Positions 9,218 through 39,083 of a stretch of DNA of 64,000 bases are shown in pieces. Source of the DNA: an uncultured Pelagibacteraceae bacterium (GTDB lineage Bacteria > Pseudomonadota > Alphaproteobacteria > Pelagibacterales > AG-422-B15); assembly GCA_902578305.1 (NCBI GenBank), contig CACHCK010000003.1, positions 66,492-130,491 of the forward strand, read 5' to 3'. The notes beneath the pieces are model-generated. The model was given only the letters and a program-made list of their open reading frames with translations, ran no database searches and was not told where the DNA came from. A program made the translations under genes and the position numbers. The number at the start of each line of letters is the position of its first letter. Positions within the stretch are counted from its first letter, which is position 1.

Positions 9218-10702
9218 ATGACTCAATACATCCTTAGTAATAAAGAAATGGCAAAGGCAGACCTTTTAACTATTGAATCTGGTATTTCTAGTTTGGATCT
9301 GATGTTTAACGCAGGAAAGAAAGTTTTCAACAATCTTCCTGTTCAAAGAGGTAAAAGGGCGCTCTTTATTTGTGGTCCGGGAAATAACGGTGGCGATGGC
9401 TATGTTGCAGCTGACCTTATTTTAAAGCAAGGTATGGAAATTGATATTTATTGCCCTATTAGTAAAGCCAAGGAAAGTAATGACAATTTACATTATAAAC
9501 AAAAACTTAATAAATCATTATTTGTTTCCAAAATAAGAAGTTTATCAAATTATTGTTATGTAGTAGACGCTTTATTTGGTACAGGGTTATCAAGGAGAAT
9601 GTCAGATGATTTAAGTTCTTTGGTTAGTAAAATTAATCAATCTAAATTAGATGTTTTCTCCGTAGATATTCCATCTGGCATTAATGGCGATACATCTGCT
9701 GTTCTTGGAGAAGCTTTTAAAGCTTCAAAAACAATTACTTTTTTTAATAAAAAAAAATGTCATTATTTGTACCCTGGAAAAAAATATTGTGGAGAAATAG
9801 TAGTTGAGGATATTGGAATTAAAAAAAACGTATTAGATCAAATTATGCCAAATATAAAAAAAAATGATCCATCATTATGGATTAAGAATTTTCCATTTCC
9901 AGTTTCAAGTGATCATAAATATTCAAGAGGAATGCTTGTAATTAATACTGGTCCTCAATTTCAAACTGGAGCAGCTCGATTAGCTGGTCGATCAGCTATG
10001 CGCGTTGGGGCAGGAGCAGTAACAATGGTCTGCGATGAAGAAACAGCAAAAATATTAGAACCACAAATCTCAGTTGAATTACTATCAGTGATAAAAGAAA
10101 AAAACGATTTTCAAAAACTTTTAAAAGACAAAAGAGTTTCAAGTGTCCTCATAGGTCCTGGAAATGGAGTAAATGATGAAACAAAAGCAAGAACTTTAAT
10201 GGCACTGGCTTTTGTGGATCATTGTGTAATTGATGCAGACGCAATTACATGTTTTGAAAATAATCCAAAAGAATTATTTATAGATACTTATCCGCATACA
10301 ATACTCACACCTCATGAAGGTGAATTTAAAAGATTATTTGGTGAAGGTATCGCGTTAATGGAAGATAAAGTACTCAAGTGTGTTGAGGCAGCCAAATTAG
10401 CAGGAAGTATAGTTTTACTCAAAGGCGCTGATACAGTTATTGCTGATCCTGAAGGGAATGTTGTAATAAATGCAAGCGAAGCTCCATATCTAGCAACCGC
10501 AGGATCAGGTGATGTTCTTGCTGGAATCATCGCTTCACTTGTTGGAGATAATAAGATGAATGCTTTTGATGCGACTTGCGCTGGAGCATATATTCACTCA
10601 AAACTTGGAGAAATGATAGGCCCCGGGCTAATTGCAGAGGATCTTATTGACAACATTCCCCTGATGATTAAAAAGCTGCATTCGTATGTTGAGGAAAATT
10701 AA
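9218..10702 (+). CDS. nnr: Bifunctional NAD(P)HX epimerase/dehydratase
   Basis: CGPGNNGGDG, VDALFGTG, VDIPSG (YjeF_N); HKYSRG, TGAARLA, IDADA, LTPHEGEF, LLKGADT, LATAGSGDVLAG. Confidence 0.93.
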   Translation: MTQYILSNKEMAKADLLTIESGISSLDLMFNAGKKVFNNLPVQRGKRALFICGPGNNGGDGYVAADLILKQGMEIDIYCPISKAKESNDNLHYKQKLNKSLFVSKIRSLSNYCYVVDALFGTGLSRRMSDDLSSLVSKINQSKLDVFSVDIPSGINGDTSAVLGEAFKASKTITFFNKKKCHYLYPGKKYCGEIVVEDIGIKKNVLDQIMPNIKKNDPSLWIKNFPFPVSSDHKYSRGMLVINTGPQFQTGAARLAGRSAMRVGAGAVTMVCDEETAKILEPQISVELLSVIKEKNDFQKLLKDKRVSSVLIGPGNGVNDETKARTLMALAFVDHCVIDADAITCFENNPKELFIDTYPHTILTPHEGEFKRLFGEGIALMEDKVLKCVEAAKLAGSIVLLKGADTVIADPEGNVVINASEAPYLATAGSGDVLAGIIASLVGDNKMNAFDATCAGAYIHSKLGEMIGPGLIAEDLIDNIPLMIKKLHSYVEEN

Positions 10703-20544: not shown

Positions 20545-20620
20545 GGGCGATTAGCTCAGCTGGAAGAGCGTCACGTTTACACCGTGAATGTCGGGAGTTC
20601 GAACCTCTCATCGCCCACCA
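20545..20620 (+). tRNA. tRNA-Val(TAC)
   Basis: 76 nt; GGGCGAT/ATCGCCC plus ACCA; anticodon arm TCACG-TT-TAC-AC-CGTGA. Confidence 0.96.
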
Positions 20621-20652
20621 TTTCCTCACACGAGATGGAAAAATTAAACTGT

Positions 20653-20730
20653 GGGGGTGTAGCTCAGTCTGGTTAGAGCGCCTGCCTGTCACGCAGGAGG
20701 TCGCGGGTTCGAGTCCCGTCACTCCCGCCA
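20653..20730 (+). tRNA. tRNA-Asp(GTC)
   Basis: GGGGGTG/CACTCCC plus GCCA; anticodon arm CCTGC-CT-GTC-AC-GCAGG; GGTTCGAGTCC. Confidence 0.96.
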
Positions 20731-20868: not shown

Positions 20869-22383
20869 ATGATTTACTGCCGCTACATAAAAAATACTCT
20901 ATATGCTCTTATGATGTTTGGCATAATTTTGACTGCTCAAGTTCATGCAAGTGAATTTAAAGTTGGCTTTGCTAAGATGCCGATCACCCCTAATCTAATT
21001 GATGAATGGGAAGATATAAATAATGATGCTCAATTTGATGCAGATATTGATAAGTGGACTGATATAAATGGCAATGGTCGATTTGATGCAGTGTGGATGG
21101 CTGGTTTTCAAAATAAACGAGCTGCCCAAGGTATTAAAGATGATTTGATGTCCGTAGCCGTTGTAATAGATGATGGCCAGACACGAATAGGTATCATAAG
21201 TGCTGATACAATAGGGTTAATGCGAAAATTTGTAATCAGTGTCCGTGAGGATGTTCCTGCTGATTGGGGCCTAGATTACATTATGGTCCACGCAACACAT
21301 AATCATGAAGGCCCAGATACTCAAGGTCTTTGGGGCCCGAGTTTTTTAAAAAGTGGTGTCAACGATGCCTATATGAAGCGGCTTAAAAAAGATTTTATAA
21401 GCACATTAAAGATGGCGATTGATAACTTAGAGGCTGCAGAAATGAGTTTGGCTTTAATTCCGACTAATCCACTTACCCCTATTAAAGATAAACGAAGACC
21501 TATCGTTATAGATGATGATATAAGGGCAATTTTATTCAATCGCCCTGACGGCTCAATTATTGGTTCTTTAATCAATTTCGGAATTCATGTCGAGCTTGCA
21601 TGGGATAAAAACTTAGACATAACCTCTGATGTTGCTGGCTACTTAAGAAAAGGTATCAGTCATGGAATTTATTATGATGACAAGTTAATTAAACCTGGTC
21701 TTGGCGGAACCACGCTATGGCTTACAGGAAATATAGGAGGCTTGATGACATCAGGGCCAACCGATCCAATTTATGATCCTGTTTTGGAAAAAATGATTAC
21801 TAAACCAAGTCATACTAAAGCTCGCGCATATGGTTATAGCCTTGCAAACAGTGTTATAGAGGCATTTCAAGCAGGCGATTTTAAGACTTCTCCTAAGCCA
21901 TCACTAAGTATCCAATCACAAGAAATAGAATTAGGTATAGAAAACTTGATGCTCTCATTTGGCACTTTGCTTGGTATAATTGATGCTGATACTAAATTCA
22001 GTCTGAGGCCACCATTTATACGTTATCTAAGTGAGGTAGCATTCATACAAATAGGAGATGCATCTATTACTGGAATTCCTGGAGAGCTTTATCCAGAAAT
22101 TGCTATCGGTGGCATTGAAAACCCTAAAGGAGCTGATTATGTTATTGCGCCACAAGAAGTTCCAAATTTACGAAGTCAATTTCCAGACAAACTGAACTTG
22201 ATGGTGAATTTAGCAAATGACTCAATCGGTTACATCATCCCAAAAAGTGAGTGGGACGATGACGCTCCTTGGATCTATGGAGAAAGTGAAGAAACATATG
22301 GCGAGGTAGTGTCCTTGGGCCCAGATACGGCAACAGTGATTCACGAAAATATCATTAAGTTGATAGAAGAGTCAGAAAAATAA
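20869..22383 (+). CDS. Secreted neutral/alkaline ceramidase-like Zn amidohydrolase
   Basis: Signal peptide ending AQVHA; VGFAKMPITP, HATHNHEGPD, INFGIHVE, IPGELYPE, NLANDSIGYI, the motif set of the ceramidase N-terminal domain. Substrate is not established. Confidence 0.7.
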   Translation: MIYCRYIKNTLYALMMFGIILTAQVHASEFKVGFAKMPITPNLIDEWEDINNDAQFDADIDKWTDINGNGRFDAVWMAGFQNKRAAQGIKDDLMSVAVVIDDGQTRIGIISADTIGLMRKFVISVREDVPADWGLDYIMVHATHNHEGPDTQGLWGPSFLKSGVNDAYMKRLKKDFISTLKMAIDNLEAAEMSLALIPTNPLTPIKDKRRPIVIDDDIRAILFNRPDGSIIGSLINFGIHVELAWDKNLDITSDVAGYLRKGISHGIYYDDKLIKPGLGGTTLWLTGNIGGLMTSGPTDPIYDPVLEKMITKPSHTKARAYGYSLANSVIEAFQAGDFKTSPKPSLSIQSQEIELGIENLMLSFGTLLGIIDADTKFSLRPPFIRYLSEVAFIQIGDASITGIPGELYPEIAIGGIENPKGADYVIAPQEVPNLRSQFPDKLNLMVNLANDSIGYIIPKSEWDDDAPWIYGESEETYGEVVSLGPDTATVIHENIIKLIEESEK

Positions 22384-24872: not shown

Positions 24873-25238
24873 ATGGACATAGCGATAGCTGATTATTTGC
24901 CAATACTAATTTTTATGTTTGTTGCGTTAGCGATTAGCTGTCTATTTGTTTTGGCAAATTTCTTAGTTGCAGTAAATAACCCTGATCCTGAAAAGAATTC
25001 TGCCTATGAGTGCGGATTTGAACAGTTTGGAGACTCTAGAATGAAGTTTGATGTTCGTTTCTATTTAGTCACATTACTTTTTATTATTTTTGACCTTGAA
25101 GTCGCGTTTCTATTTCCTTGGGCTGTTACATTTGGAACCTTAGGCTTATTTGGCTTTGTTTCAATGATGGTTTTCCTAGCTATTCTAACAATTGGTTTCA
25201 TATATGAGTGGAAAAAAGGAGCATTGGAGTGGCAATAA
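24873..25238 (+). CDS. nuoA: NADH-quinone oxidoreductase subunit A
   Basis: [41 protein letters not shown]. Confidence 0.97.
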
Positions 25239-25750
25239 ATACAAATATTGAAGAGACAAGTCCAGAACTAGAAAGATTAAAAAAGTTGTACGCTGATAAG
25301 GGGTTTGTTGTCACCAGTATCAATAACCTTATTAACTGGGCTCGAACAGGCTCTCTGCATTGGATGACTTTTGGATTAGCTTGTTGTGCTGTCGAAATGA
25401 TGCATGTTGGAACACCGCGCTACGACGTTGAGCGTTTTGGCGCAGCTCCAAGAGCATCACCAAGACATGCAGACGTTCTTATAGTGGCAGGCACGTTGAC
25501 AAACAAAATGGCAGCGGCATTAAGAAAAGCTTATGATCAGATGCCAGAACCTCGATATGTAATTTCCATGGGAAGTTGTGCGAATGGTGGAGGGTATTAT
25601 CACTACTCATATTCTGTCGTTAGAGGTTGTGATCGAATAATACCTGTCGACGTTTACGTACCAGGATGTCCACCTACAGCAGAAGGCTTGCTTTATGGAT
25701 TATTGCAGTTACAGAAAAAAATAAGAAGAGAAGGTAACATCAAAAGATAA
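25229..25750 (+). CDS. nuoB: NADH-quinone oxidoreductase subunit B
   Basis: [25 protein letters not shown] at 25229 overlapping the nuoA end is preferred over the track start at 25208. Confidence 0.96.
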
Positions 25751-26343
25751 TGAGCGAGCAAATTGAAATGGCAAAAGCCGCCATTGAAAAAAACTGTAAA
25801 CTGAATGATCTAGATGTAAATTTAGGACAGTTACAACTATCGGTTGATCCAGCAAATTTAGTACCGGTTATTGATTTTGTTAAGAATGATCCAAGCTGTG
25901 AATTTAAGCAAATAACAGATATTGCCGGAGTGGATTTTCCAGAATATGAAAAAAGATTTGAAGTTATTTATCATTTTTTGAGTTTTAGGTTCAATTTGCG
26001 GTTAAGAGTAAAAACTCAGATAAGTGAAGAGGAGTCTTTGCCCAGCATAACATCAATCTTTCCTGCAGCTAATTGGTTTGAGAGAGAAGCATTTGACATG
26101 TATGGAATAACTTTCACGGACCATCCAGATTTAAGAAGAATTTTAACTGATTACGGTTTTGAGGGATATCCTCTACGTAAAGATTTTCCATTAACAGGTA
26201 ATGTCGAAATCAGATATGACGAAATTGATAAAAAAATAGTTCACGAGCCCGTTAAGTTGCAACAAGATTTTAGAAATTTTGACATTCAAAGTCCCTGGGA
26301 AGGAACAAAGTATTTAGATAAGGAAGCAAAAGACAGTGAGTAA
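25750..26343 (+). CDS. nuoC: NADH-quinone oxidoreductase subunit C
   Basis: [35 protein letters not shown]. Confidence 0.97.
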
Positions 26344-27508
26344 TAATAAAACTGTAACTGTTAATTTTGGACCAGTTCACCCTGCAGCACATGGCGTTTT
26401 AAGACTCATTCTTGATCTAGATGGAGAAATTGTAGAAAGGGCTGACCCGCACATCGGGCTTTTACATAGAGGCACTGAAAAATTAATCGAACATAAAACT
26501 TATCTTCAAGCAATACCATATTTCGACAGACTGGATTATGTTGCACCTATGAACCAGGAGCATGCTTTTGCATTAGCAATAGAAAAATTGCTAAATGTAG
26601 AAGTGCCTTTGAGAGGGCAATATATTAGAGTTTTATTTGCTGAAATTGGGCGTCTCTTAAGCCACCTACTAAATGTTACCACTACAGCAATGGATGTTGG
26701 AGCTATGACACCAATCACATGGGGCTTTGATGAAAGAGAAAAGCTATTAGATTTTTACGAAGAAGTATCTGGATCTAGATTTCATGCAGCCTATTTTCGA
26801 GCAGGTGGTGTTCATCAAGATCTACCAGACGGATTAACTGATAAGATATTTAATTTTTGTAATAACTTCCCAAAAGCAATTGATGATATTGAAAGCATGT
26901 TGACTGAAAATAGAATATTTAAACAACGAAATGTAAATATTGGTAAAGTATCAAAGGAAGATGCTGTTGATCGTGGCTTTAGCGGATTCATATTAAGAGC
27001 ATGCGGTGTACCATGGGATTTAAGAAAGTCACAACCGTATGATTGTTACGACAAACTTGAATTCAAAGTTCCAGTTGGTCAAAACGGGGATTGTTATGAC
27101 CGTTATCTATGTCAGATTGAAGAAATGAGAGAAAGTACAAAAATCATGCTTCAATGTCTTGATCAGATGCCTAAAGGAGAAGTCATCAACAGAGATTCCA
27201 AAATTGCAGCGCCTAAAAGGGAAGATATGAAACAATCAATGGAAGCCATAATTCATCATTTTAAATTTTTTACTGAAGGCTTTCATGTACCTGCAGGAGA
27301 AATCTATTCTGCTGTTGAGGCTCCTAAAGGTGAATTTGGAGTATATTTAATTTCCGATGGAACCAGCAGACCTTATAGATGTAAAATTAGAGCCCCTGGA
27401 TTTGCTCACTTGCAAGCATTTGATTTGCTTTCAAAAGGCCATCTTCTAGCAGATGTCCCTGCAATTCTTGGATCAATTGCAATAGTTTTTGGTGAGGTTG
27501 ATAGATGA
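26336..27508 (+). CDS. nuoD: NADH-quinone oxidoreductase subunit D
   Basis: [27 protein letters not shown], ends FGEVDR. Confidence 0.98.
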
Positions 27509-28062
27509 GCAATCAAAAAAATACCTTTGTGTTTAATAAGGAAAATGAAATTAGGGCAAAAGAAATTCTTCTTAAATATCCAACTGATAGAAGGCAAAGT
27601 GCAATCATGCCTTTGCTTGATTTAGCGCAAAGACAAAATGAAAACTGGTTGAGCAGAGATATAGTTGAGTATGTAGCTGATTACTTAGAAATGCCTTTTA
27701 TCAAAGCTTGGGAAGTAGTTACTTTTTATTCAATGTATTACACAAAATACAATGGAAAATATTTAGTACAAGTTTGTGGAACAACACCTTGTTGGTTAAG
27801 AGGTTCAGATCAAGTTATAAAGGCGTGTAAAGAAGTTATTTCACCAGAACCAAATACAGTCTCAAGTGATGGTTTATTTTCATGGATGCAAGTTGAGTGT
27901 CTTGGTGCTTGTGTGAACGCTCCACTTGTTCAAATCAATGACGATTATTATGAAGATTTGACTTACGATACAACGAAAAACGTTTTGCAATCTCTTATAG
28001 ATGGATCGCCACTGAGTATAGGTTCACAAAGTGGCCGTAAAAGTTCAAAGGCAGTGTCATAA
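27505..28062 (+). CDS. nuoE: NADH-quinone oxidoreductase subunit E
   Basis: CGTTPC...CLGAC 2Fe-2S ligands. Confidence 0.97.
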
Positions 28063-29330
28063 TGTTAAAAGAAAAAGATAAAATATTTACTAATTTATTT
28101 GGCGATGAGCCTTTTCATTTAAAAAATGCACAGGCAAGAGGTGATTGGGATAATACAAAAGAACTTATTAAAAAAGGAAGAGAATGGATAATTGATGAGA
28201 TGAAAAAATCTGAGTTAAGGGGAAGAGGAGGTGCAGGTTTCCCTACCGGATTAAAATGGTCATTTATGCCTAAAGACTCAAAGCTTACTAATTACCTTGT
28301 TGTTAATGCAGATGAGTCTGAACCAGGCACTTGCAAAGATAGAGACATGATACGAAATGAGCCTCATAAGCTTATTGAAGGATGCTTGTTAGCATCTTTT
28401 GCTATGAATGCTCATACTTGTTACATTTATATTCGCGGTGAATATTTCAATGAAGCTGTTGTTCTTCAAAAAGCGATTGACGAAGCATACGACGCTGGGT
28501 TAATTGGGAAAAATGCTGCTAAGTCGGGTTGGGATTTTGATATATTCTTACATCGAGGCGCAGGAGCATACATATGTGGAGAGGAGACAGCTCTACTTGA
28601 AAGCTTGGAAGGAAAAAAGGGCCAACCAAGACTCAAACCTCCTTTTCCAGCTAATAAAGGTCTATACGGATCTCCAACTACTGTAAATAATGTTGAAACC
28701 ATAGCTGTTGTTCCAACAATTTTAAGGAGAGGTGGAGAATGGTTTTCATCTTTTGGTCGACCAAAAAATACAGGTACAAAAGTTTTTTGTATTTCTGGTC
28801 ATGTTAATAATCCTTGCAATATAGAGGAAGAAATGAGCATTCCTCTTAGGGAGCTTATAGAAAAGCATGCTGGAGGTGTAACTGGTGGATGGGATAATCT
28901 TAAAGCTGTAATTCCTGGGGGCTCATCTGTTCCACTTATACCAAAATCAACTTGCGATACTGTCCTGATGGATTTCGATTCACTGTCTGCAGTTAAAAGT
29001 GGGTTAGGCACAGCCGCTGTAATCGTAATGGATAAAAGCACTGACCTCGTCAAAGCTATCTCTAAGCTATCTCACTTTTATAAACACGAAAGTTGCGGTC
29101 AATGCACGCCTTGTAGAGAAGGAACAGGGTGGATGTGGAGAATGATGGAGAAGATTGGAAACGGTCATGCAAGTTCAAATGATATTGATAAGTTACTTGA
29201 TGTGACAAAGCAAATTGAAGGCCATACAATTTGCGCGCTTGGTGATGCGGCGGCATGGCCAATTCAAGGATTGTTTAGGCATTTTAGAGATGAAATAGAA
29301 GAGCAACTTAAAAAGACTGAGGCTGCATAA
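28062..29330 (+). CDS. nuoF: NADH-quinone oxidoreductase subunit F
   Basis: [44 protein letters not shown]. Confidence 0.98.
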
Positions 29331-31840
29331 TGGCAAAAGTAAAAATAAATGGGTCCGAGATTGAAGTATCTGATGGCATGACGATACTGCAGGCATGTGA
29401 AGAGGCAGGAATTGAAATACCAAGATTTTGCTACCATGATCGTCTTTCTATTGCAGGTAATTGTAGAATGTGCCTTGTTGATGTGGAAGGTTCACCTAAA
29501 CCAGTTGCTTCTTGCGCGATGCCGATTAACGAAGGCATGTCAATTCATACAAATACTCAGTCTGTCAAAAAAGCAAGAGAAGGTGTAATGGAGTTTTTGC
29601 TAATTAATCACCCACTAGATTGCCCAGTTTGTGATCAAGGTGGTGAGTGCGATCTACAAGACCAAACTATTGCTTTTGGTCCTGAAAATTCAAGGTTCGA
29701 AGAGAATAAAAGGGCAGTTGAAGAAAAGCATATGGGCCCATTGATTAAAACTTATATGACTCGATGCATTCACTGCACAAGGTGTATCCGATTTGCAGAT
29801 GAAGTAGCGGGAGTAAATCAATTAGGCGCAGTAAATCGCGGAGAAAATATGGAAATAACAACTTATTTAGAAAAGACATTAGACTCCGAGCTATCGGCTA
29901 ATATCGTTGATTTATGTCCGGTAGGTGCACTTACATCGAAACCATATCAATTTGAAGCCAGACCTTGGGAATTAAAGAAGACAGAGACCATTGATGTTAT
30001 GGATGCGGTAGGGTCGAATATTAGAGTTGATACTTACGGGTGGAAAGTGAAAAGAGTACTACCTGTGCTTAATGAAGATATTAATGAAGAGTGGATATCA
30101 GATAAAACAAGGTATGCATGCGATGGACTTTTAAATCAACGTCTAGACGCACCCTACATAAAAAAGAATAACAAATTAGAGCAAGTTTCATGGGAAGAAA
30201 CTTTTTCTCAATTAAAAAAACTTGTTATGGATTCAGATCCTGATGAAATTGCGTTTTTAGTAGGTGATTTTATTGATTTAGAAACTAGCTATTTAATAAA
30301 AAAATTATCGGAAGATCTAAGCATTAAGGCAGTTGATGGAAGACAGGAAGGATGTAAAGTTCCATTCAACCATCGATCTCAGTTTTTATTTAATTCTAAA
30401 ATTAAAGGTATTGATGAAACAGATTGCATTTTAATGATTGGAGCAAACACGCGTGAAGAAGCTGCAATTATTAATTCAAGAATAAGGAAAAGAGTTATTT
30501 CATCAAATATTCCAGTTGCACTGATTGGAAAAAATGTGGATCTTACATATAAATACAATCACTTGGGCGATGATATAAATATCCTTATAGATCTTTTAAA
30601 TGAAAAAAACTCATTTTATAAAAAGTTAACAAATGCCTCAAAGCCAATGATTATTATTGGCCAGTCCGTGCTAAATCGTGATGACTCATTGCAGATTTAC
30701 TCACTGCTTGAAACTTTTACAGATAAATTCAATCTCATTCAGGAAGATTGGAATGGATTTAATGTATTACAGCTTGCCGCTGCTAGAGCAGGTATTCTTG
30801 AGATGAGTCTTATACAAAAAAATAAATCAGTCGATGATTTGGTTGCCGATGCAGAAAAAGGTAAATTCAAATTAGTGTTTTCATTTGGTGCTGATGAAAT
30901 CAGTTATGAAAATTTTTCTAATTGTAAAATAGTTTATATGGGCACACATGGAGATAGAGGCGCAAACGCCGCTGATTTTATATTGCCTGCAGCAGCATAT
31001 ACTGAAAAGGATGCAATTTTTATAAACACTGAAGGGAGAGTTCAATACGCAAATAAAGCAAGTTTTCCTCCAGGTGAAGCTAGGGAAGATTGGAAAATTA
31101 TTAATCAATTCAGTGAAGTACTTGAACTAAAATGGTCGTTTTTAGAATTGTATGATGTAAGAGCTGAAATGTTTGCCAAGTTTCCTCACCTTAATGAAGA
31201 CTTTAATGATCAAAATAATGGATTCGTTAAAATTATTGATAATAAAGCTAATGAAGAAGTAGAAATCATTAATAAGGATACAAGATCAAGCCAAGAAAAA
31301 AAGAATGACACAATCAATGGTAACATCAAGAGCTTTGAAGAAAATTCGGCAAAAAAAATATTTAATACAGCTTGGACTGATCTAAATGATCGCCAGAGAG
31401 AGTATCTTAGAAAATATAATTATCCTGAGACATGGTCAGAATTTACAGAGCATTATGGCTTTAAAGTTGTTAATGATGTTAAGAAGAAGAATAACGTCGT
31501 GCTGCCTTATGAGGACCAATACGCAAATAGTCTCGGAAAAGCTTGGAATGATCTCACTTATAATCAAAAGAAGTGGGCTTATACTAAAAGAAATAAAAAT
31601 AATTTAATTGGATTAGCAGATGACGCAAATTTTTCACCTGATGGAATTGTCGTCTTAAACGACAATCAGGAGGCATACTATGCTCAACCAAAAGAAATTA
31701 ACTTTAAAATTAAAAACTTAAGTTTTAGTATTGAAGACTTTTATATAAACGACTCAATTACAAGACATTCTAGTACGATGGCCGAATGCAGCCGAGCTAG
31801 AAGTGAAGTAAGGTCATCAGTAACGGAAAAGGCTTCATAA
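29330..31840 (+). CDS. nuoG: NADH-quinone oxidoreductase subunit G with a large C-terminal insertion
   Basis: CYH...[32 protein letters not shown], terminal DFY...[12 protein letters not shown]; 836 aa versus the roughly 680-700 aa usual in alphaproteobacteria. Confidence 0.95.
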
Positions 31841-32853
31841 TGATTAGCTTAGCTCAAACGTACTTTATCGAAGTAATGACCATTATTCTTTATTGCCTAC
31901 TTATTTTTGTTCCCTTACTTCTGGGTGTTGTAATGGCGTTATATGCAGATAGAAAAATATGGGCAGCAGTTCAAAAAAGGAGAGGCCCAAATGTGGTTGG
32001 CCCGTATGGTTTGTTCCAAGTTCCTGCTGATGGATTAAAATTTATTTTTAAAGAAATTATTTTACCCGACGGCTCTGACAAAACAGTTTTTCTAATTGCT
32101 CCCATTATTACTCTTGCTCTATCAATTGCTGCCTGGGCAGTTGTACCGGTTCAGGCGGGTGTAGTATTGGCTAATATAAACGTTGGAATCTTATACATTT
32201 TTGCAATTAGCTCTCTTGGTGTCTATGGAATTCTGATGGCTGGATGGTCTTCAAACAGTAAGTATCCTTTTTTTGGCGCTCTAAGATCAGCTGCTCAAAT
32301 GGTTTCTTACGAAGTTTCCATAGGTTTTGTAATAATAACTGTCCTGCTATGTGTAGGCTCACTCAACTTGACTGAAATAGTAATGGCTCAAAAGACAATG
32401 TGGTTTTTCATACCTTTATTTCCAATGTTTATTGTTTTTTTTATATCCGCACTAGCTGAAACGAACAGACCTCCATTTGATCTTCCTGAAGCAGAGTCTG
32501 AGTTAGTAGCTGGCTATCAAACAGAGTATTCAGGAATGCCATTCGTTTTGTTTATGTTTGGAGAATACATAAATATTTTATTAATGTGCGCAATGACCAC
32601 TATTCTATTCCTTGGGGGGTGGTTGCCACCAATTGATATTTATCCATTAAATGCTGTTCCTGGATTTGTTTGGTTTTTATTGAAAGTAACTCTTGTTTTT
32701 TACTTATTTGCTATGGTTAAAGCATTTGTTCCAAGGTATAGATATGACCAATTAATGCGACTTGGCTGGAAAGTTTTCTTGCCTTTATCACTTTTTGCAG
32801 TTGTAGCAACATCGTCGATATTGTTCTTTTTTAATCTAGCTCCAGGAATGTAA
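31840..32853 (+). CDS. nuoH: NADH-quinone oxidoreductase subunit H
   Basis: [48 protein letters not shown]. Confidence 0.98.
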
Positions 32854-33338
32854 TGAAAATAATTAATTTTTTAAAATCGTTCCTTCTTCTAGATTTTTTA
32901 AAAGCTTTCTATTTAGCTCAAAAATATTTTTTTAGGAAAAAAGCAACAATCAATTATCCTTTTGAAAAAGGAAAATTAAGCCCTCGATTCAGAGGTGAGC
33001 ATGCCTTGAGAAGATATCCGAGTGGTGAGGAAAGGTGTATAGGGTGTAAATTGTGTGAGGCTGTATGTCCTGCTCAAGCGATAACAATTGAAACTCAACC
33101 TCGCGATGACGGAACAAGAAGAACGCTTAGGTATGATATTGACATGGTTAAATGTATCTACTGTGGTTTATGTGAGGAGTCGTGCCCAGTTGATGCAATT
33201 GTACAGGGTCCAAATTTTGAATTTACAACTGAAACGAGAAAAGAACTTTATTATACGAAAGAAAAATTGCTTGAAAACGGTGATAGATGGGAAACAGTTA
33301 TCGCTGAGAACTTAGAAGCCGATGCAAAATATAGATAA
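32853..33338 (+). CDS. nuoI: NADH-quinone oxidoreductase subunit I
   Basis: [12 protein letters not shown] and [12 protein letters not shown]. Confidence 0.98.
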
Positions 33339-33953
33339 ATGACAGCTCAATTATTAACATTCTATTTATTTTCAGGGGTTATTTTAATTTCTTCATTGAT
33401 GGTTATTTCAACTAAAAACCCAGTCCATTCAGTATTGTTCCTAATTCTTTCATTTTTGAATGCCGCTGGCTTATTCGTTATTCTTCACGCCGAATTTTTG
33501 GCAATGATACTTATAATTGTTTATGTTGGTGCTGTTGCGGTACTTTTTTTATTTGTTGTAATGATGTTAGATTTTAAAACATCAATCAATAAGGATAATA
33601 TTTTACAATATATTCCGATAGGAATTTTGATTGGTGTAGTTTTTATTGCAGAGTTAATAATTGTATTAATTAATACAAAGTTTGACTTGTCAAATATTCA
33701 AGTGTTACCAAACCCTCTTTCAGATTTTACTGGCAAGTCTAATACAGAAGCAATTGGCTCAGTTTTGTACACAGACTACATTCTATATTTCCAACTTTCA
33801 GGTGTAATTCTGCTTGTTGCAATGATTGGTTCTATTGTATTAACTCTCCGCGAAAGAGAAGGTGTAAAGAGGCAAGTTGTTTCAGAGCAACTACAACGAC
33901 AGGGCAAAATTGATTTAGTAGATGTAAAATCTGGAAAAGGTATTGATATTTAA
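33339..33953 (+). CDS. nuoJ: NADH-quinone oxidoreductase subunit J
   Basis: [26 protein letters not shown]. Confidence 0.97.
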
Positions 33954-34258
33954 TGATTGAATTAAATCAATTTTTAATTTTATCTGCCTTATTGTTTGCA
34001 ATTGGCGTTATTGGTATTTTTTTAAATCGAAAAAATGTGATTATCATTTTAATGTCAATTGAAATCATTTTGCTCTCTGTAAATTTAAATCTTATATCTT
34101 TTTCTTATTTTTTAAATGATCTAACTGGGCAAATATTCTCTCTTTTTGTTCTTACTGTTGCTGCCGCTGAAGCTGCGATAGGACTTGCTATACTTGTAAT
34201 TTATAACAGAAATGCTGGCAGTATAGAGATTGAGAAAATAAACGCCTTAAAGGGGTAA
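33953..34258 (+). CDS. nuoK: NADH-quinone oxidoreductase subunit K
   Basis: [23 protein letters not shown]. Confidence 0.97.
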
Positions 34259-34264
34259 TGTTGA

Positions 34265-36187
34265 ATGGCGTATAGTATAATTTTATTGCCCTTGATTGGG
34301 TTCTTGATTTCATGTTCGTTATCATTTTTTAAGTCTAATAAATTTATTGATCGAACAGCAGAGATCATCACTTCATTATTTATTACTATTACAGCAATAT
34401 TTTCCTTTTATATTTTTATTGATAATATTGGGGACCCATCGGTAGTATCAATCAAACTATTTAACTGGATATCCTCTGGTTCATTCAATGCTGATTGGTC
34501 AATTTATCTAGATACAGCTACAAGAGTAATGCTTGTAGTAATTACAAGCGTATCAGCGTTAGTTCATATTTATTCAATTGGTTATATGTCTCATGATGAG
34601 AGTAAGCCTCGTTTTATGGGTTACTTATCATTATTCACATTTGCTATGCTGATGCTTGTTACTGCAGATAATTTTTTGCAACTGTTCTTTGGCTGGGAAG
34701 GTGTTGGACTTGCTTCTTATTTATTAATTGGGTTTTGGTACAAAAAACCAACTGCAAATGCTGCTGCAATTAAAGCATTTATAGTAAATCGCATAGGTGA
34801 CTTTGGATTAGCTTTAGGTATTTTTACAATATTTATTGTTTTTGGTAGCATCGAATATCAGACCGTATTTAGTAATGTCTCATCTTTTAAGAACGTAAAT
34901 TTCAACTTTTTAGGTTTTGAATTACATGCTTTGACATTAATTTGTATTTTCTTATTCATTGGCGCCATGGGCAAGTCAGCTCAATTATTTCTTCATACAT
35001 GGCTTCCAGATGCAATGGAGGGCCCAACGCCAGTATCTGCATTAATACATGCGGCAACAATGGTTACAGCTGGCGTATTCCTTGTAGTTCGATGTTCACC
35101 TTTATTTGATTTGGCTCCTGTTGCTTTGGACTTTGTAGTTTTGATTGGTGCAAGCACTGCATTTTTTGCAGCTACCGTTGGTCTGGTTCAAAATGATATT
35201 AAGCGTGTCATTGCATATTCAACTTGTAGTCAATTAGGCTACATGTTCGTTGCAGCTGGACTTGGAGCTTACGGTGCAGCCATGTTCCATTTATTTACGC
35301 ATGCATTTTTTAAAGCGCTTCTATTTTTAGGAGCGGGATCAGTAATTCATGCTGTTCATGAAGAACAGGATATAAGGAAAATGGGAGGCATAAGTAATTT
35401 TGTTCCAATAACTCAATTAATGATGATAATTGGAACAATTTCACTTATGGGTTTTCCATTCACCTCTGGCTATTACTCAAAAGATGCAATCATAGAAACA
35501 GCTTATCTATCTAATTCAAATTTCGCAGACTATGCATATATCTTACTTACAGTCGGTGTTGTGATGACATCTTTCTATTCATGGAGGCTTATGTTTCTTG
35601 TTTTCAATGGAAAAACAAGAATGGCTGAAGAAGACCTTAGTAAAGTTCATGAGTCTTCCTCAGTAATGTTAATTCCTCTAATAATTTTAGCAATTGGAGC
35701 TTTGTTTTTTGGATTTTTATTCAAAAGCTATTTTATCGGTTATAACAGTGATGTATTTTGGAATGGATCAATTGTCGTCCATCATGAAGATCACCATTCA
35801 ATTCCTTTGTTAATATATTATTTGCCTGCAATTTTAGGCATAGTTGGATTTATTATCGCTTGGTTCATGTATATTCGAAAATCAGATATGGCTAAGAATA
35901 TAGCTGAGTTAAATAAGCCTCTTTACAATTTTCTATTAAATAAATGGTATTTCGACGAGTTGTATGATTCTATCTTTGTAAAACCAGCCATGGCAATTGG
36001 CCGCATTTTTTGGACGTTTATCGATGGTTTAATTATCGATGGTTACGGTCCTAATGGAATAGCTGCTTTAGTGAGCAGAATATCAATAAAAGCAAAGCAA
36101 GTTCAATCTGGATTTATCTACCATTATGCTTTTGCTATTTTAATTGGTCTTTCAGTAATTATTACTTTCATAATTTTTAGGTTTTAA
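34265..36187 (+). CDS. nuoL: NADH-quinone oxidoreductase subunit L
   Basis: GWEGVGLASYLLIGFW, GKSAQ, WLPDAMEGPTPVSALIHAATMV, HAFFKALLF. Confidence 0.98.
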   Translation: MAYSIILLPLIGFLISCSLSFFKSNKFIDRTAEIITSLFITITAIFSFYIFIDNIGDPSVVSIKLFNWISSGSFNADWSIYLDTATRVMLVVITSVSALVHIYSIGYMSHDESKPRFMGYLSLFTFAMLMLVTADNFLQLFFGWEGVGLASYLLIGFWYKKPTANAAAIKAFIVNRIGDFGLALGIFTIFIVFGSIEYQTVFSNVSSFKNVNFNFLGFELHALTLICIFLFIGAMGKSAQLFLHTWLPDAMEGPTPVSALIHAATMVTAGVFLVVRCSPLFDLAPVALDFVVLIGASTAFFAATVGLVQNDIKRVIAYSTCSQLGYMFVAAGLGAYGAAMFHLFTHAFFKALLFLGAGSVIHAVHEEQDIRKMGGISNFVPITQLMMIIGTISLMGFPFTSGYYSKDAIIETAYLSNSNFADYAYILLTVGVVMTSFYSWRLMFLVFNGKTRMAEEDLSKVHESSSVMLIPLIILAIGALFFGFLFKSYFIGYNSDVFWNGSIVVHHEDHHSIPLLIYYLPAILGIVGFIIAWFMYIRKSDMAKNIAELNKPLYNFLLNKWYFDELYDSIFVKPAMAIGRIFWTFIDGLIIDGYGPNGIAALVSRISIKAKQVQSGFIYHYAFAILIGLSVIITFIIFRF

Positions 36188-36190
36188 AAA

Positions 36191-37672
36191 ATGAGTGAAA
36201 TTCCAATCTTAAGCATTTTAATCTTCATACCGGTCGTTGGTATATTTTTTATGTTATTGATAAAAAATAATGATGAGCAAAGCTCTCAGAATCTAAAGCA
36301 CACCGCTTTATGGATTACTTTTTTAAATTTTATTATATCACTATCGTTACTATTTTCATTTGACTTAAATAACCCTGACTTTCAATTTGTAGAAAAATAT
36401 TCATGGATAGAAAGTGGTATCAGCTATCATTTAGGTATAGATGGAGTTTCAATTTTATTTGTAATACTGACAACAATGCTTGTGCCTATTTGCATACTTG
36501 CAAGTTATGAAAGCATTATATTTTCTGTAAAAGAATATTTGATTTCATTTTTAGCTTTAGAAACTTTTATGATTGGAGTTTTCTGCTCTCTTGATCTTGT
36601 ACTATTTTATCTATTTTTTGAAGGAGGCTTAATTCCAATGTTCTTAATCATTGGGATATGGGGCGGAGAAAGAAGGGTTTATTCAACTTTCAAATTTTTC
36701 CTTTATACTCTTGCGGGCTCAGTATTTATGCTGCTCGCAATAATTTACATTTTTATTTCTACAGGAACAACTGATGTTGAAACATTGTTAGTGTATAATT
36801 TTACCTCAAACGAACAATTGATATTGTGGATTGCATTTTTTACTTCATTCATGGTCAAGATACCAATGTGGCCTTTTCACACTTGGCTACCAGATGCGCA
36901 CGTAGAAGCACCAACAGCTGGATCAGTTATACTTGCGGGCGTTCTATTAAAAATGGCTGGGTATGGCTTTATAAGATTTTCTATTGGTTTTTTTCCGGAT
37001 GCATCAGAATTTTTTGCACCATTTATATTTTCTCTTAGTGTTATAGCAATAATAGTGACTTCACTAATCGCATTAGTGCAAGAAGACATGAAAAAACTAA
37101 TAGCTTATTCATCAGTTGCTCATATGGGATTTGTAACATTAGGAATATTTACATTCACTGTACAAGGAATAGAGGGTGGCATAATTCAAATGATAAGCCA
37201 TGGCATTGTTTCTGCGGCATTATTTTTGTGTGTTGGCGTGGTATATGATCGTCTTCATACAAGAGAAATTTCAAGATATGGAGGTCTAGTTAGTAAAATG
37301 CCTTTTTATTCATTTTCATTTATGATTTTTATGTTAGCCAGTCTTGGCTTACCTGGAACAAGTGGTTTTGTTGGCGAATTTTTAGTACTTCTATCTATTT
37401 TTACAGTAAATACATATTTTGCGATATTTGCGACTACAGGTGTTGTATTGGCAGCCACCTATTCTTTATGGCTATATAGAAGAATAATATTTGGCGCTTT
37501 AATTAAAGATGATCTATCTGAAATGTTTGATCTAACAAGAAGAGAGATAATTATTTTTGTACCCTTAATTATCTTAACGATATTCATTGGCTTATATCCG
37601 AAACCAGTCATAAATATCATTGAGCCCTCTACAGAAAAAATTGTAAATCAAATCAAAATGAAATTAGATTAA
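36191..37672 (+). CDS. nuoM: NADH-quinone oxidoreductase subunit M
   Basis: FFEGGLIPM, WLPDAHVEAPT, LLKMAGYG, AYSSVAHMG. Confidence 0.98.
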   Translation: MSEIPILSILIFIPVVGIFFMLLIKNNDEQSSQNLKHTALWITFLNFIISLSLLFSFDLNNPDFQFVEKYSWIESGISYHLGIDGVSILFVILTTMLVPICILASYESIIFSVKEYLISFLALETFMIGVFCSLDLVLFYLFFEGGLIPMFLIIGIWGGERRVYSTFKFFLYTLAGSVFMLLAIIYIFISTGTTDVETLLVYNFTSNEQLILWIAFFTSFMVKIPMWPFHTWLPDAHVEAPTAGSVILAGVLLKMAGYGFIRFSIGFFPDASEFFAPFIFSLSVIAIIVTSLIALVQEDMKKLIAYSSVAHMGFVTLGIFTFTVQGIEGGIIQMISHGIVSAALFLCVGVVYDRLHTREISRYGGLVSKMPFYSFSFMIFMLASLGLPGTSGFVGEFLVLLSIFTVNTYFAIFATTGVVLAATYSLWLYRRIIFGALIKDDLSEMFDLTRREIIIFVPLIILTIFIGLYPKPVINIIEPSTEKIVNQIKMKLD

Positions 37673-37673
37673 A

Positions 37674-39083
37674 ATGCAAAGCTTAGTATACATATTGCCT
37701 GAAATATTTTTATTTATAGTTGCAACAGTTTTGTTAGTGACTGGCTTGTTTGTGAAAAATATAAGGCTAATTAATTCGCTTGCTATTTTTTCACTTTTTG
37801 TTGCATTTGTATTAATTTTAAATCAACCTTTTCAATCAGCGTTTCTAAATAGTTTTGTTGTAGATGAATTTTCACTAGTACTAAAAGTTATGATAATAGT
37901 CGGTTCCATTGCTTCCTTGATTATGTTTGTATCAAGTAAAGATGACCTAAATATAAATGTTTACGAATTTCCAATTTTAATAATTTTCTCAACAATAGGT
38001 ATGATGGTAATGGTTTCAGCAAATGATTTACTTGCAATGTTTATAGGTTTAGAGCTTCAATCATTAAGCCTTTATGTTCTTGCGGCTTTGAACAGAAACA
38101 GCTTACTGTCATCAGAAGCAGGAATAAAATACTTTATACTCGGAGCTCTTTCCTCAGGCTTATTGCTCTTTGGAATTTCATATATTTATGGATTTTCAGG
38201 AAATACAAACTTTAATCTAATAGCTGTAAATATTAATCCCGAAAGTCTGGGTTTAATTATTGGCATAGTTTTTGTATTGGCAGGACTGGCTTTTAAAGTT
38301 TCAGCCGTTCCTTTTCATATGTGGACGCCTGACGTTTATCAAGGAGCACCAACTCCGATTACAGGGTTCTTTGCCCTTGCTCCAAAAATTGCTGCAATGG
38401 GTTTACTAGTTAGATTCTTATTCAATTCATTTGGTGAGATTTATATTGACTGGCAACAAATTATTTTTTTCATATCAATCGCATCGATGATGCTCGCTGC
38501 CTTTGCTGCCATTGCTCAAACTAATTTAAAAAGACTTATGGCGTATAGCTCAATAGGTCATATTGGATATGCTTTAATAGGTGTGGCCTGTTTCACCGAT
38601 GAGGGGTTAAGGTCATTGTTAATATATTTAATGATTTATTTAATTATGAATATTGCTGTTTTTGCTTTTTTACTGTCTTTAAAAAGAAACGATGGATATT
38701 TTGAAAATACATCAGACTTATCTGGAATGCATAAAAATCATCCTCTAAGGACCATGCTAATTGCCCTGATTATGTTTTCTCTAGCTGGCATTCCTCCTTT
38801 AGCTGGCTTTTTTGGTAAATTTTATATTTTCGTTGCAGCTATTGAATCTGAAATGTTATTCCTCGCAATTATTGGCGTCATAGCAAGTGTTATCAGTGCA
38901 TTTTATTATTTAAGGATTGTTAAGATAATGTATTTTGATGAACCTAAAGAAGAATTTGATGGATCAAGTATCAAATCACTTAATCTGCTTTATTATCCCT
39001 CGTCTGTACTAATTATTATTTTCTTTATTTACCCATCGCCAGTAATAAATATTTCTGAATATGCCATTCAATCAATTATTTAA
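37674..39083 (+). CDS. nuoN: NADH-quinone oxidoreductase subunit N
   Basis: GLELQSL, EAGIKYF, FKVSAVPFHMWTPDVYQGAPT, AGIPPLAGFFGK. Confidence 0.98.
   Translation: MQSLVYILPEIFLFIVATVLLVTGLFVKNIRLINSLAIFSLFVAFVLILNQPFQSAFLNSFVVDEFSLVLKVMIIVGSIASLIMFVSSKDDLNINVYEFPILIIFSTIGMMVMVSANDLLAMFIGLELQSLSLYVLAALNRNSLLSSEAGIKYFILGALSSGLLLFGISYIYGFSGNTNFNLIAVNINPESLGLIIGIVFVLAGLAFKVSAVPFHMWTPDVYQGAPTPITGFFALAPKIAAMGLLVRFLFNSFGEIYIDWQQIIFFISIASMMLAAFAAIAQTNLKRLMAYSSIGHIGYALIGVACFTDEGLRSLLIYLMIYLIMNIAVFAFLLSLKRNDGYFENTSDLSGMHKNHPLRTMLIALIMFSLAGIPPLAGFFGKFYIFVAAIESEMLFLAIIGVIASVISAFYYLRIVKIMYFDEPKEEFDGSSIKSLNLLYYPSSVLIIIFFIYPSPVINISEYAIQSII

What the first reader, a model, noticed from the sequence alone, without database searches (positions are those of the whole stretch)
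31210..31700. Roughly 150-aa in-frame insertion in NuoG with a duplicated W-x-D-L-x-x-x-Q motif
Seen: 183 aa separate FPHL (aa 618) from the terminal IEDFY motif (aa 801), where roughly 30-40 aa are usual from memory. The extra segment contains [12 protein letters not shown] and [12 protein letters not shown] 57 aa apart; the DNA GCTTGGACTGATCT (31370) and GCTTGGAATGATCT (31541) match at 13/14. The frame is intact and nuoG stays TAATG-coupled to nuoH. Inference: an aromatic-rich domain grown by duplication on the exposed peripheral arm, possibly a built-in accessory subunit or binding module of complex [16 protein letters not shown] resembles HMG-box-like helix-turn motifs, but that is only a visual resemblance.
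Basis: partly seen in the sequence, partly recalled or inferred. Interest (0 to 1): 0.72.

Follow-up and report, generated by a model that had tools for sequence, protein, structure and literature searches.

The report
Orphan 147-aa domain inside SAR11 NuoG
One lineage of the abundant marine SAR11 bacteria carries a strongly conserved 147-residue protein module, with no detectable relatives anywhere else, inserted into the NuoG subunit of respiratory complex I; it is real and under selection, but its job is still inferred.

Summary
nuoG (29330..31840, 836 aa) carries a clean in-frame insertion of 147 aa (aa 639-785, nt 31244-31684). It lies in the short linker between the molybdopterin-like domain and the C-terminal helix.

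The insertion is not an artefact. Twenty-six species-level Pelagibacteraceae (SAR11) genomes carry it: 25 intact 835-836-aa genes and one cut by a contig end. So do hundreds of metagenome-derived proteins. These NuoGs form one clade nested among 682-687-aa SAR11 NuoGs, which indicates a single gain.

The 120-aa core (aa 666-785) is 82-86% identical where the molybdopterin-like domain is 65-72%. In 61% of its codon columns the only variation is synonymous, so it is translated and strongly constrained.

It has no detectable homologue: Pfam, PHROGs, PDB, viral contigs and an exhaustive profile search of 1.84 billion proteins returned only this clade. AlphaFold confidence is low; the prediction is mostly helices plus short strands. 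There are no cysteines, so no extra cofactor is expected.

Internal duplication is suggestive only (P about 0.01). HMG-box and Myb/SANT likeness are not supported.

Best reading: a built-in accessory domain on the distal N-module, at the position of the lost NuoG domain D. That function is inferred, not shown.

The parts
29330..31840 (+). nuoG (NADH-quinone oxidoreductase subunit G / NDUFS1 type), 836 aa, including the stop codon
   Evidence: Pfam finds Fer2_4, NADH-G_4Fe-4S_3, Fer4_Nqo3, Fer4_NDSU1, Molybdopterin and NADH_dhqG_C. The best PDB matches are mitochondrial NDUFS1 and Paracoccus 8qby_G, with E-values between 1e-185 and 1e-202.
31244..31684 (+). Lineage-specific in-frame insertion, aa 639-785 (147 aa)
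   Evidence: Boundaries come from alignment with insert-less sister NuoGs and are uncertain by about 3 residues. The region has no Pfam, PDB or PHROG match. The exhaustive profile search returned only this NuoG clade.
31244..31324 (+). Less conserved, charged N-terminal segment of the insert (aa 639-665), a likely tether
   Evidence: The broader block aa 621-665 is 42-62% identical between divergent members. Within aa 639-665, 56% of codon columns vary in amino acid. The composition is rich in K, E, N and S.
31325..31684 (+). Highly conserved core of the insert (aa 666-785)
   Evidence: The core is 82-86% identical in comparisons where the molybdopterin-like domain is 65-72%, with dN about 0.10. 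In 61% of codon columns the only variation is synonymous, and 25% vary in amino acid. About 30 hydrophobic or aromatic positions are invariant.
31334..31405 (+). Motif copy 1: [24 protein letters not shown] (aa 669-692), predicted helix-turn-helix
   Evidence: Helices are predicted at aa 667-678 and 687-695 in both AF2 runs.
31457..31477 (+). Motif GFKVVND (aa 710-716), a predicted strand following hairpin 1
   Evidence: The motif is invariant across the clade. The insert-only model predicts a strand here. It aligns with GIVVLND in the greedy hhalign run.
31508..31576 (+). Motif copy 2: [23 protein letters not shown] (aa 727-749), predicted helix-turn-helix
   Evidence: Helices are predicted at aa 726-734 and 744-756. 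This is the only part of the insert with pLDDT of about 60-70.
31643..31663 (+). Motif GIVVLND (aa 772-778), a predicted strand following hairpin 2
   Evidence: The clade consensus is G-I-V-V-x-[NS]-D.
31715..31789 (+). Ancestral C-terminal helix region of NuoG (NADH_dhqG_C, aa 796-820), downstream of the insert
   Evidence: Pfam PF09326 matches aa 796-820. PDB alignments resume at aa 797-799.
31840..32853 (+). nuoH, whose start overlaps the nuoG stop by one base (TAATG)
   Evidence: The insert-less sister locus L028 has the same operon order, but there nuoG ends at 6055 and nuoH starts at 6058 with no overlap.

Best explanation
An ancestor of one Pelagibacterales (SAR11) lineage gained a 147-residue segment in the loop that joins the last molybdopterin-like domain of NuoG to its C-terminal helix.

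The segment is translated as part of NuoG. It consists of a poorly conserved charged tether of about 27 aa followed by a 120-aa aromatic-rich core, predicted to be mostly helical with short strands. The core looks like two helix-turn-helix-strand units. It has no cysteines and no metal- or nucleotide-binding motif, so it should not take part in electron transfer.

The insertion point is where bacterial NuoG/Nqo3 proteins carry domain D, which the alphaproteobacterial/mitochondrial type has lost. I therefore infer that it acts as a built-in supernumerary domain. It would pack on the distal N-module surface (NuoG domains B/C or neighbouring NuoE/F) and stabilise or shield it. This is the role played by domain D in Thermus and E. 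coli and by subunit NDUFA2 in mitochondria.

Shown: the insertion exists, its boundaries, a single origin, translation, strong purifying selection and orphan status.

Inferred: the fold, the packing site and the stabilising function.
For: - Existence and boundaries.
- Independent occurrence: 26 species-representative Pelagibacteraceae genomes carry the insert, 25 as intact 835-836-aa genes and one (L009) cut by the contig end. The 90%-identity clusters hold 809, 442 and 147 member sequences.
- Single gain: the 835-836-aa proteins form one clade in a neighbour-joining tree built without the insert columns. That clade is nested among 682-687-aa SAR11 NuoGs.
- Orthology of the insert-less sister: it sits in the same nuoB-K operon, with neighbour genes within 1-2 residues of the window's in length.
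- Constraint on the protein: the core is 82-86% identical against 65-72% for the molybdopterin-like domain. dN is about 0.10 with saturated dS, and dN/dS is 0.03-0.10. In 61% of codon columns the only variation is synonymous.
- No cofactor ligands: direct reading of the sequence shows no Cys and one non-conserved His.
- Position equals the lost domain D, and the compensation concept is established: PMC8762328.
- Precedent: lineage-specific extensions of core subunits replace supernumerary subunits in Paracoccus complex I, PMC11522691.
Against: - No confident 3-D model exists. Insert pLDDT is below 50 in both AF2 runs, apart from aa 730-750. Packing on NuoG is therefore not demonstrated.
- Sister SAR11 lineages, and Paracoccus and mitochondria, function without such a domain, so a stabiliser is not obviously needed.
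- Two fully conserved basic patches (KKKNN, KRNKNN) and the long tether would fit a ligand- or partner-binding module equally well.
- I could not test whether insert-bearing genomes lack an accessory-subunit gene that the sister lineages keep.
Confidence: 0.45

Rival explanations
1. The insert is a docking or adaptor module. The tethered domain would recruit another protein to the NADH-oxidising tip of complex I, or mediate complex I self-association or regulation, rather than stabilise NuoG itself. Candidate partners include a dehydrogenase, an assembly or repair factor, or a regulator.
For: - A variable tether of about 27 aa precedes a very conserved core.
- The surface-type residues are conserved: invariant KKKNN and KRNKNN patches and many invariant Trp and Tyr residues.
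- The location is exposed and distal.
- The Paracoccus enzyme unexpectedly binds a PIMT-type protein as a lineage-specific subunit, PMC11522691. This shows that such recruitment happens.
Against: No partner is known. No co-occurring clade-specific gene was identified; the other nuo genes visible in the sister locus (nuoC-K) match the window's sizes to within 1-2 residues. No homology to any known interaction domain was found.
Confidence: 0.27
2. The insert is a nucleic-acid-binding helical module of the HMG-box or Myb/SANT kind, giving NuoG a moonlighting contact with DNA or RNA.
For: - There is visual similarity of [16 protein letters not shown] to the HMG-box helix 2-3 junction.
- There is visual similarity of [27 protein letters not shown] to a Myb repeat, with the same 20-residue Trp-to-Trp spacing.
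- Basic patches are conserved.
Against: - No Pfam HMG_box or Myb hit appears even at E<=10.
- hhalign gives P=0.22 against HMGB1 over 14 columns and P=0.065 against c-Myb R2R3 over 23 columns.
- The overall pI of the core is 6.8, so it is not basic.
- There is no helix-1 equivalent of an HMG box.
- The profile search against PDB found nothing.
Confidence: 0.04
3. The insert is a tolerated, functionless expansion, such as AT-driven Asn/Lys-rich filler or a replication-slippage product in an exposed loop.
For: The insert is rich in N (15%) and K (12%) in a genome of about 33% GC. It sits in a surface loop that can tolerate length change. The lag of 171 nt is the top self-similarity lag.
Against: The core is more conserved than most of NuoG and shows overwhelmingly synonymous variation. 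There is no length polymorphism across the 25 complete genes (835-836 aa). SAR11 genomes are streamlined, so 441 nt of useless sequence would not be expected to persist.
Confidence: 0.04
4. The insert is an artefact (assembly chimera) or a removable element (an intein, or a relic of the ancestral domain D).
For: One low-coverage metagenome contig (L027, encoding P0009) is chimera-like. One single-cell-genome protein (P0022) has a 63-aa deletion elsewhere in NuoG.
Against: - The same architecture occurs in 26 independent genomes and in large metagenome clusters.
- There is no intein signature: the insert starts with Lys, ends with Ala-Gln-Pro, has no His-Asn junction and contains no Cys.
- There is no Molydop_binding Pfam hit, and the prediction is helical rather than a beta-barrel.
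- The phylogeny shows a recent gain inside a clade that lacks domain D.
Confidence: 0.01

Closest known systems
Alphaproteobacterial/mitochondrial-type 75-kDa subunit (NuoG / Nqo3 of Paracoccus, NDUFS1)
   Same: The whole protein outside aa 639-785 matches. It has the same Pfam domain set, is 54-73% identical to insert-less SAR11 and other alphaproteobacterial NuoGs, and sits in the same nuoA-N operon.
   Different: It carries 147 extra residues between the molybdopterin-like domain and the C-terminal helix. Relatives have a linker of about 36 aa there.
Domain D of NuoG/Nqo3 in E. coli, Thermus and Mycobacterium
   Same: Both occupy the same place in the polypeptide, after domain C. Domain D is proposed to bridge and stabilise domains B and C (PMC8762328), which is the function I infer for the insert.
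   Different: There is no sequence similarity (no Molydop_binding hit). The insert is predicted helical rather than a beta-barrel. It was gained recently within a lineage that lacks domain D, so it is not a retained domain.
Mitochondrial accessory subunit NDUFA2 (B8) and other 'filled-in' solutions (E. coli G-loop, Thermus Nqo16, Paracoccus NDUFV2 C-terminal extension overlaying NDUFV3)
   Same: The concept is the same: lineage-specific polypeptide added to the N-module surface to stabilise NDUFS1/NuoG, either as a separate subunit or as an extension of a core subunit (PMC8762328; PMC11522691).
   Different: There is no homology. NDUFA2 has a thioredoxin fold with redox-active cysteines, whereas the insert has no cysteine. 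NDUFA2 binds the face opposite domain D. The binding site of the insert is unknown.
HMG-box and Myb/SANT helical DNA-binding domains
   Same: Short stretches look alike by eye. One is the LGxxWxxL...K..Y stretch. The other is W-x19-W with a KY.-P..WS signature.
   Different: Neither resemblance is statistically supported. The full three-helix architecture is not recognisable.

Membership tests
NuoG / NDUFS1 (complex I 75-kDa subunit, alphaproteobacterial/mitochondrial type) | N-terminal 2Fe-2S and 4Fe-4S cluster domains (Fer2_4, NADH-G_4Fe-4S_3, Fer4_Nqo3, Fer4_NDSU1) | tested here: met
   All four families are above their gathering scores at aa 3-265.
NuoG / NDUFS1 (complex I 75-kDa subunit, alphaproteobacterial/mitochondrial type) | Molybdopterin-oxidoreductase-like domain followed by the short NADH_dhqG_C helix, without domain D | tested here: met
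   PF00384 matches aa 271-597 and PF09326 matches aa 796-820, with no Molydop_binding hit. The best PDB matches are mitochondrial NDUFS1 and Paracoccus 8qby_G.
NuoG / NDUFS1 (complex I 75-kDa subunit, alphaproteobacterial/mitochondrial type) | Encoded in a nuoA-N operon between nuoF and nuoH | tested here: met
   The ORF order runs from 24873 to 39083 with 1-nt overlaps. birA, coaX and RNase J lie downstream. The sister locus has the same gene order.
HMG-box domain | Significant match to the HMG_box profile or to a bona fide HMG box | tested here: not met
   There is no Pfam hit at E<=10.
HMG-box domain | L-shaped three-helix fold of about 75 aa | tested here: inconclusive
   The AF2 models have low confidence and Foldseek gave no match with E<=0.001. 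Only about 12 residues precede the LGKAW helix after the basic patch, which is too short for HMG helix 1.
Myb/SANT domain | Significant match to Myb/SANT profiles, with three regularly spaced aromatic residues | tested here: not met
   There is no Pfam hit. hhalign against c-Myb R2R3 gives P=0.065 over 23 columns. The third aromatic residue at the canonical spacing is absent.
NuoG domain D (Molydop_binding-like beta-barrel) | Sequence or fold similarity to the C-terminal beta-barrel domain of molybdopterin enzymes | tested here: not met
   There is no PF01568 hit at E<=10. The predicted secondary structure is mainly helical. Phylogeny shows a derived gain.
Intein | N-terminal Cys/Ser, C-terminal His-Asn followed by Cys/Ser/Thr, and Hint-domain blocks | tested here: not met
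   The insert begins with Lys-Ala-Asn and ends with Tyr-Tyr-Ala followed by Gln-Pro. It contains no Cys and has no Pfam Hint or intein hit.
Internal tandem duplication (two-unit repeat domain) | Statistically significant similarity between the two halves | tested here: inconclusive
   hhalign gives P=0.009 over 22 columns, or 52 columns with greedy settings. Smith-Waterman shuffle tests give p=0.005-0.1 in four species. The 57-aa lag is the top lag but is not significant after correcting for 100 lags. The motif is unique to the two sites in the window.

The most novel reading that the evidence does not exclude
The insert is a de novo-born protein domain, with no ancestor in any sequenced protein. 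It became fixed in an uncultured but abundant SAR11 lineage because it gives complex I a new capability. Examples would be tethering a partner enzyme or regulator to the NADH-oxidising tip, or linking complexes together. That would be a recent, datable birth of a functional accessory 'subunit' of complex I inside a core subunit of a genome-streamlined organism.
Probability: 0.15. Interest if true: 0.75.

Novelty: new variant of a known kind. Interest (0 to 1): 0.52.

Why it matters
Complex I has repeatedly acquired extra polypeptide on its NADH-oxidising module, as separate subunits in mitochondria and as loops or domains in E. coli and Thermus. Here the acquisition can be dated to one branch inside SAR11, with insert-less sister lineages available as natural controls. 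That makes the question 'what does an added accessory element do for complex I?' directly comparable between close relatives.

The case is also an exception to genome streamlining. A lineage of very abundant ocean bacteria keeps 441 extra nucleotides in an essential gene under strong selection.

The domain has no detectable homologue among about 1.8 billion representative proteins. It is therefore a candidate for recent domain birth and for a new fold.

On the practical side, the insert is a clean molecular marker for this SAR11 lineage in metagenomes and metaproteomes.

Tried and rejected
- Pfam on the insert at E<=10: no family.
- PHROGs: only noise at E about 0.05.
- PDB profile search: one junk hit at E=0.9.
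- Exhaustive hmmsearch of 1.84 billion representative proteins: 9 hits, all fragments of the same NuoG clade.
- Viral contig scan: nothing.
- tblastn of the insert against the rest of the window, looking for a paralogous source: best E=0.11, which is noise.
- AF2 on the insert alone (pLDDT 42.7) and on full-length NuoG with a 72-sequence alignment (insert pLDDT below 50): no usable fold. Foldseek on the low-confidence model gave no match with E<=0.001.
- HMG-box and Myb/SANT leads tested with hhalign: not significant.
- Third 'repeat copy' at 31198 reported by the repeat finder, and the NEDFN/IEDFY pair: rejected as part of the insertion. Both lie in ancestral sequence that insert-less sisters also have.
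- Compositional anomaly as a sign of foreign origin: none. GC is 33.1% in the insert and 35.0% in the rest of the gene.
- Naming the SAR11 subclade from the literature: the genome identifiers were not found in the text library, and the AEGEAN-169 paper had no supplements held as text. The subclade remains unresolved.
- Literature searches for a described NuoG insertion in SAR11 or other alphaproteobacteria: none found.
Full report
**1.

The ORF at 29330..31840 (+) encodes an 836-aa NuoG. It has the full Pfam complement of the complex I 75-kDa subunit: Fer2_4, NADH-G_4Fe-4S_3, Fer4_Nqo3, Fer4_NDSU1, Molybdopterin at aa 271-597 and NADH_dhqG_C at aa 796-820.

- FPHL is at aa 618 and IEDFY at aa 801.
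- [12 protein letters not shown] is at aa 681 (nt 31370) and [12 protein letters not shown] at aa 738 (nt 31541).
- The nuoG stop overlaps the nuoH start by one base (TAATG).

phmmer against all PDB chains aligns the protein to mitochondrial NDUFS1 and Paracoccus Nqo3 (8qby_G, 674 aa). The alignment runs up to aa 615-632 and resumes at aa 797-799. About 143 residues have no counterpart.

**2. Exact limits of the insertion**

The closest NuoGs that lack the extra segment are 682-687 aa long. They read '...(K)LLAN | (K/T/R)P(K/E)..F...IIKDFY'. The window reads '...KIIDN(638) | K639 ... A785 | Q786-P-K-E-I-N-F...SIEDFY'.

The insertion is therefore aa 639-785, which is 147 aa or nt 31244-31684, give or take about three residues. 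The NEDFND stretch at aa 622 is ancestral. So is the weak third repeat copy that the repeat finder placed at 31198. Insert GC is 33.1% against 35.0% for the rest of the gene, so there is no compositional sign of recent foreign origin.

**3. It is real, widespread and gained once**

A pattern scan of one genome per GTDB species returned 26 loci. All are labelled Pelagibacteraceae, and all are single-cell or metagenome-assembled genomes. Twenty-five carry an intact 835-836-aa nuoG with the insertion. The 26th (L009) is cut off by the contig end but also carries it.

In the protein collection, the 90%-identity clusters of full-length insert-bearing NuoG hold 809, 442 and 147 member sequences.

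I built a neighbour-joining tree from 680 core alignment columns, with the insert columns removed. All 835-836-aa proteins fall in one clade. That clade is nested within SAR11 NuoGs of 682-687 aa, and 'Candidatus Pelagibacter sp.' NuoGs (679 aa, 54-56% identity) lie outside them.

The insert-less sister P0063 sits in the same nuoB-C-D-E-F-G-H-I-J-K operon. Its neighbouring genes are within 1-2 residues of the window's in length. It is therefore an orthologue, and among the nuo genes visible in that locus the insert is the only large size difference.

No cultured strain appears among the 26 species representatives. I could not assign the named SAR11 subclade.

**4. It is translated and strongly constrained**

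I compared the window with the four most divergent clade members, L022-L025:

| Region | Amino-acid identity |
|---|---|
| Insert core, aa 666-785 | 82-86% |
| Molybdopterin-like domain, aa 271-597 | 65-72% |
| C-terminal tail, aa 791-836 | 59-80% |
| Fe-S domains, aa 1-265 | 88-94% |

dN in the insert core is about 0.10 while dS is saturated. Where dS could be estimated, dN/dS is 0.03-0.10.

Across 26 sequences (the window plus 25 complete loci), codon columns divide as follows:

| Region | Synonymous variation only | Amino acid varies |
|---|---|---|
| Insert core, aa 666-785 | 61% | 25% |
| Fe-S domains, aa 1-265 | 68% | 17% |
| Molybdopterin-like domain, aa 271-597 | 38% | 50% |

The first 27 residues of the insert (aa 639-665) are much less conserved: 56% of their codon columns vary in amino acid. 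They are charged, as expected of a tether. There is no length polymorphism across the clade.

These results rule out an artefact, an untranslated element and neutral filler.

**5. It has no detectable relatives**

- Pfam at E<=10 gives no family.
- PHROGs gives only noise.
- A profile of the insert against all PDB sequences gives one junk hit at E=0.9.
- An exhaustive hmmsearch against 1.84 billion representative proteins gives nine hits. One is a full-length 835-aa NuoG and eight are short fragments of the same clade's NuoG.
- IMG/VR viral contigs hold no relative.
- The rest of the window holds no paralogous source.

At the sequence level, the insert is an orphan domain confined to one SAR11 lineage.

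**6. Fold**

AlphaFold2 on the insert alone, with a 4-sequence alignment, gave a mean pLDDT of 42.7. Full-length NuoG with a 72-sequence alignment gave high confidence for the molybdopterin-like domain. The insert stayed below 50 except around aa 730-750. Foldseek with the low-confidence model found no match with E<=0.001, as expected.

Both runs agree on the secondary structure:
- Helices at about aa 654-662, 667-678, 687-695, 726-734 and 744-756.
- Strands at about aa 773-776 and 782-785.
- The insert-only run adds a strand at aa 711-715.

The core has about 30 invariant hydrophobic or aromatic positions. Its composition is W 3.2% and Y 8.0%, with a pI of 6.8. This is what a folded globular or interface domain looks like, not a disordered linker. 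It contains no cysteine and only one non-conserved histidine, so an extra Fe-S cluster or metal site is not expected.

**7. Internal duplication is suggestive, not proven**

The two halves share [FY]-E-[ED]-x-x-A-x-x-[IL]-x(2,3)-W-x-D-L-x-x-x-Q-[RK]-x-[YW] at aa 669-692 and 727-749. Further on they share G-[FI]-x-V-[VL]-N-D at aa 710-716 and 772-778. The motifs come in the same order and have the same predicted helix-turn-helix-strand pattern.

The regular expression W.[DEN]L...Q[KR].[YW] occurs only at these two sites in all six frames of the window. This pattern was defined after seeing the data.

The formal tests are weak:
- hhalign gives P=0.009, with 22 aligned columns, or 52 under greedy settings.
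- Smith-Waterman against shuffled sequences gives p=0.005-0.1 in four species.
- The lag of 57 aa (171 nt) is the best autocorrelation lag for both protein and DNA. However, 54% of shuffled proteins reach the same score at some lag.
- The 13/14 DNA match only reflects the shared codons.

**8. Tested resemblances**

There is no Pfam hit, and hhalign against HMGB1 gives P=0.22 over 14 columns. I noticed a Myb/SANT-like stretch, with W682 and W702 spaced 20 residues apart and a 'KY.-P..WS' signature. It is also not significant (P=0.065).

The insert is not an intein. Its junction residues are Lys...Ala|Gln-Pro and it has no Cys.

It is not a relic of domain D. There is no Molydop_binding hit, the prediction is helical, and the phylogeny shows a derived gain.

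**9. What it most likely does**

According to a structural review of complex I accessory subunits (PMC8762328), bacterial NuoG/Nqo3 has four domains, A to D. Domain D binds at the B/C interface. The mitochondrial form lacks domain D and keeps only a short C-terminal helix. The accessory subunit NDUFA2 is proposed to compensate by bridging domains B and C.

The review and the Paracoccus structure paper (PMC11522691) describe a recurring pattern. Different lineages stabilise the N-module with different additions:
- NDUFS4, and the E. coli G-loop together with its alpha10/11 extension.
- Thermus Nqo16.
- The Paracoccus NDUFV2 C-terminal extension, which overlays the NDUFV3 site.
- A Paracoccus-specific PIMT subunit.

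The SAR11 insert sits exactly in the polypeptide position of the lost domain D.

My best-supported reading, by inference, is a built-in supernumerary domain on the distal N-module. It would stabilise or shield NuoG without taking part in electron transfer. The main rival is a tethered docking module for a partner protein. The variable tether and the conserved basic patches (KKKNN, KRNKNN) fit that rival just as well. I could not discriminate between the two with the tools available.

**10. Verdict**

The feature is genuine and conserved. It is a clade-defining orphan domain insertion in a core respiratory subunit of an abundant, apparently uncultured SAR11 lineage. I found no description of it in the searchable literature. 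It is a new variant of a known kind, namely lineage-specific decoration of the complex I N-module. The domain itself has no known relatives, and its function remains inferred.

Noticed in passing
L027 (ENA ERZ2944879 NODE_27367, 1329 nt, coverage 1.85), ORF 257-1219 = P0009: A 320-aa ORF joins an unrelated 240-aa N-terminal part (no Pfam or PHROG hit) in frame to the last 80 or so residues of this NuoG, from 'NLIGLADDA' onwards. It is most likely a chimeric low-coverage assembly, but the join lies inside the insert.
   Followed up: partly
P0022 (NCBI-sourced, 773 aa, singleton cluster): This NuoG is otherwise nearly identical to the window's but lacks 63 aa of the core (about aa 558-620, the end of the molybdopterin-like domain) while keeping the insert. 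It is probably an amplification or assembly artefact in a single-cell genome.
   Followed up: partly
window 31198-31219, 31369-31390, 31540-31561: find_reps reports three 22-nt copies at exact 171-nt spacing (68-82% identity). The first copy lies in ancestral sequence upstream of the insert. Either the spacing is coincidence, or the insert arose by tandem duplication of the preceding 57 codons. The lag test was not significant.
   Followed up: partly
window 6277-7686 (-) and 7708-8688 (-): Two glutamine-synthetase genes lie side by side. One is a type I GlnA (469 aa). The other is a short GlnII-like protein (326 aa; 343 bits against the GlnII model, below its 500-bit cut-off).
   Followed up: no
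window 20869-22383 (+): This 504-aa ORF has only a weak, sub-threshold match to the N-terminal part of neutral/alkaline ceramidase (E=1e-4, 21 bits). It is otherwise uncharacterised and lies just after two tRNA genes at 20545-20727.
   Followed up: no
window 10686-12530 (+): This 614-aa ORF has only short, weak esterase/lipase-motif matches in NCBIfam (E=2e-9 over about 30 residues). No family could be assigned.
   Followed up: no
window 27505-33338: nuoE/F, nuoF/G, nuoG/H and nuoH/I each overlap by one base, stop on start. nuoD/E overlaps by four bases. In the insert-less sister locus L028 the layout differs. nuoF/G (4001) and nuoH/I (7071) share one base, while nuoE/F (2728/2730) and nuoG/H (6055/6058) do not overlap.
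   Followed up: partly
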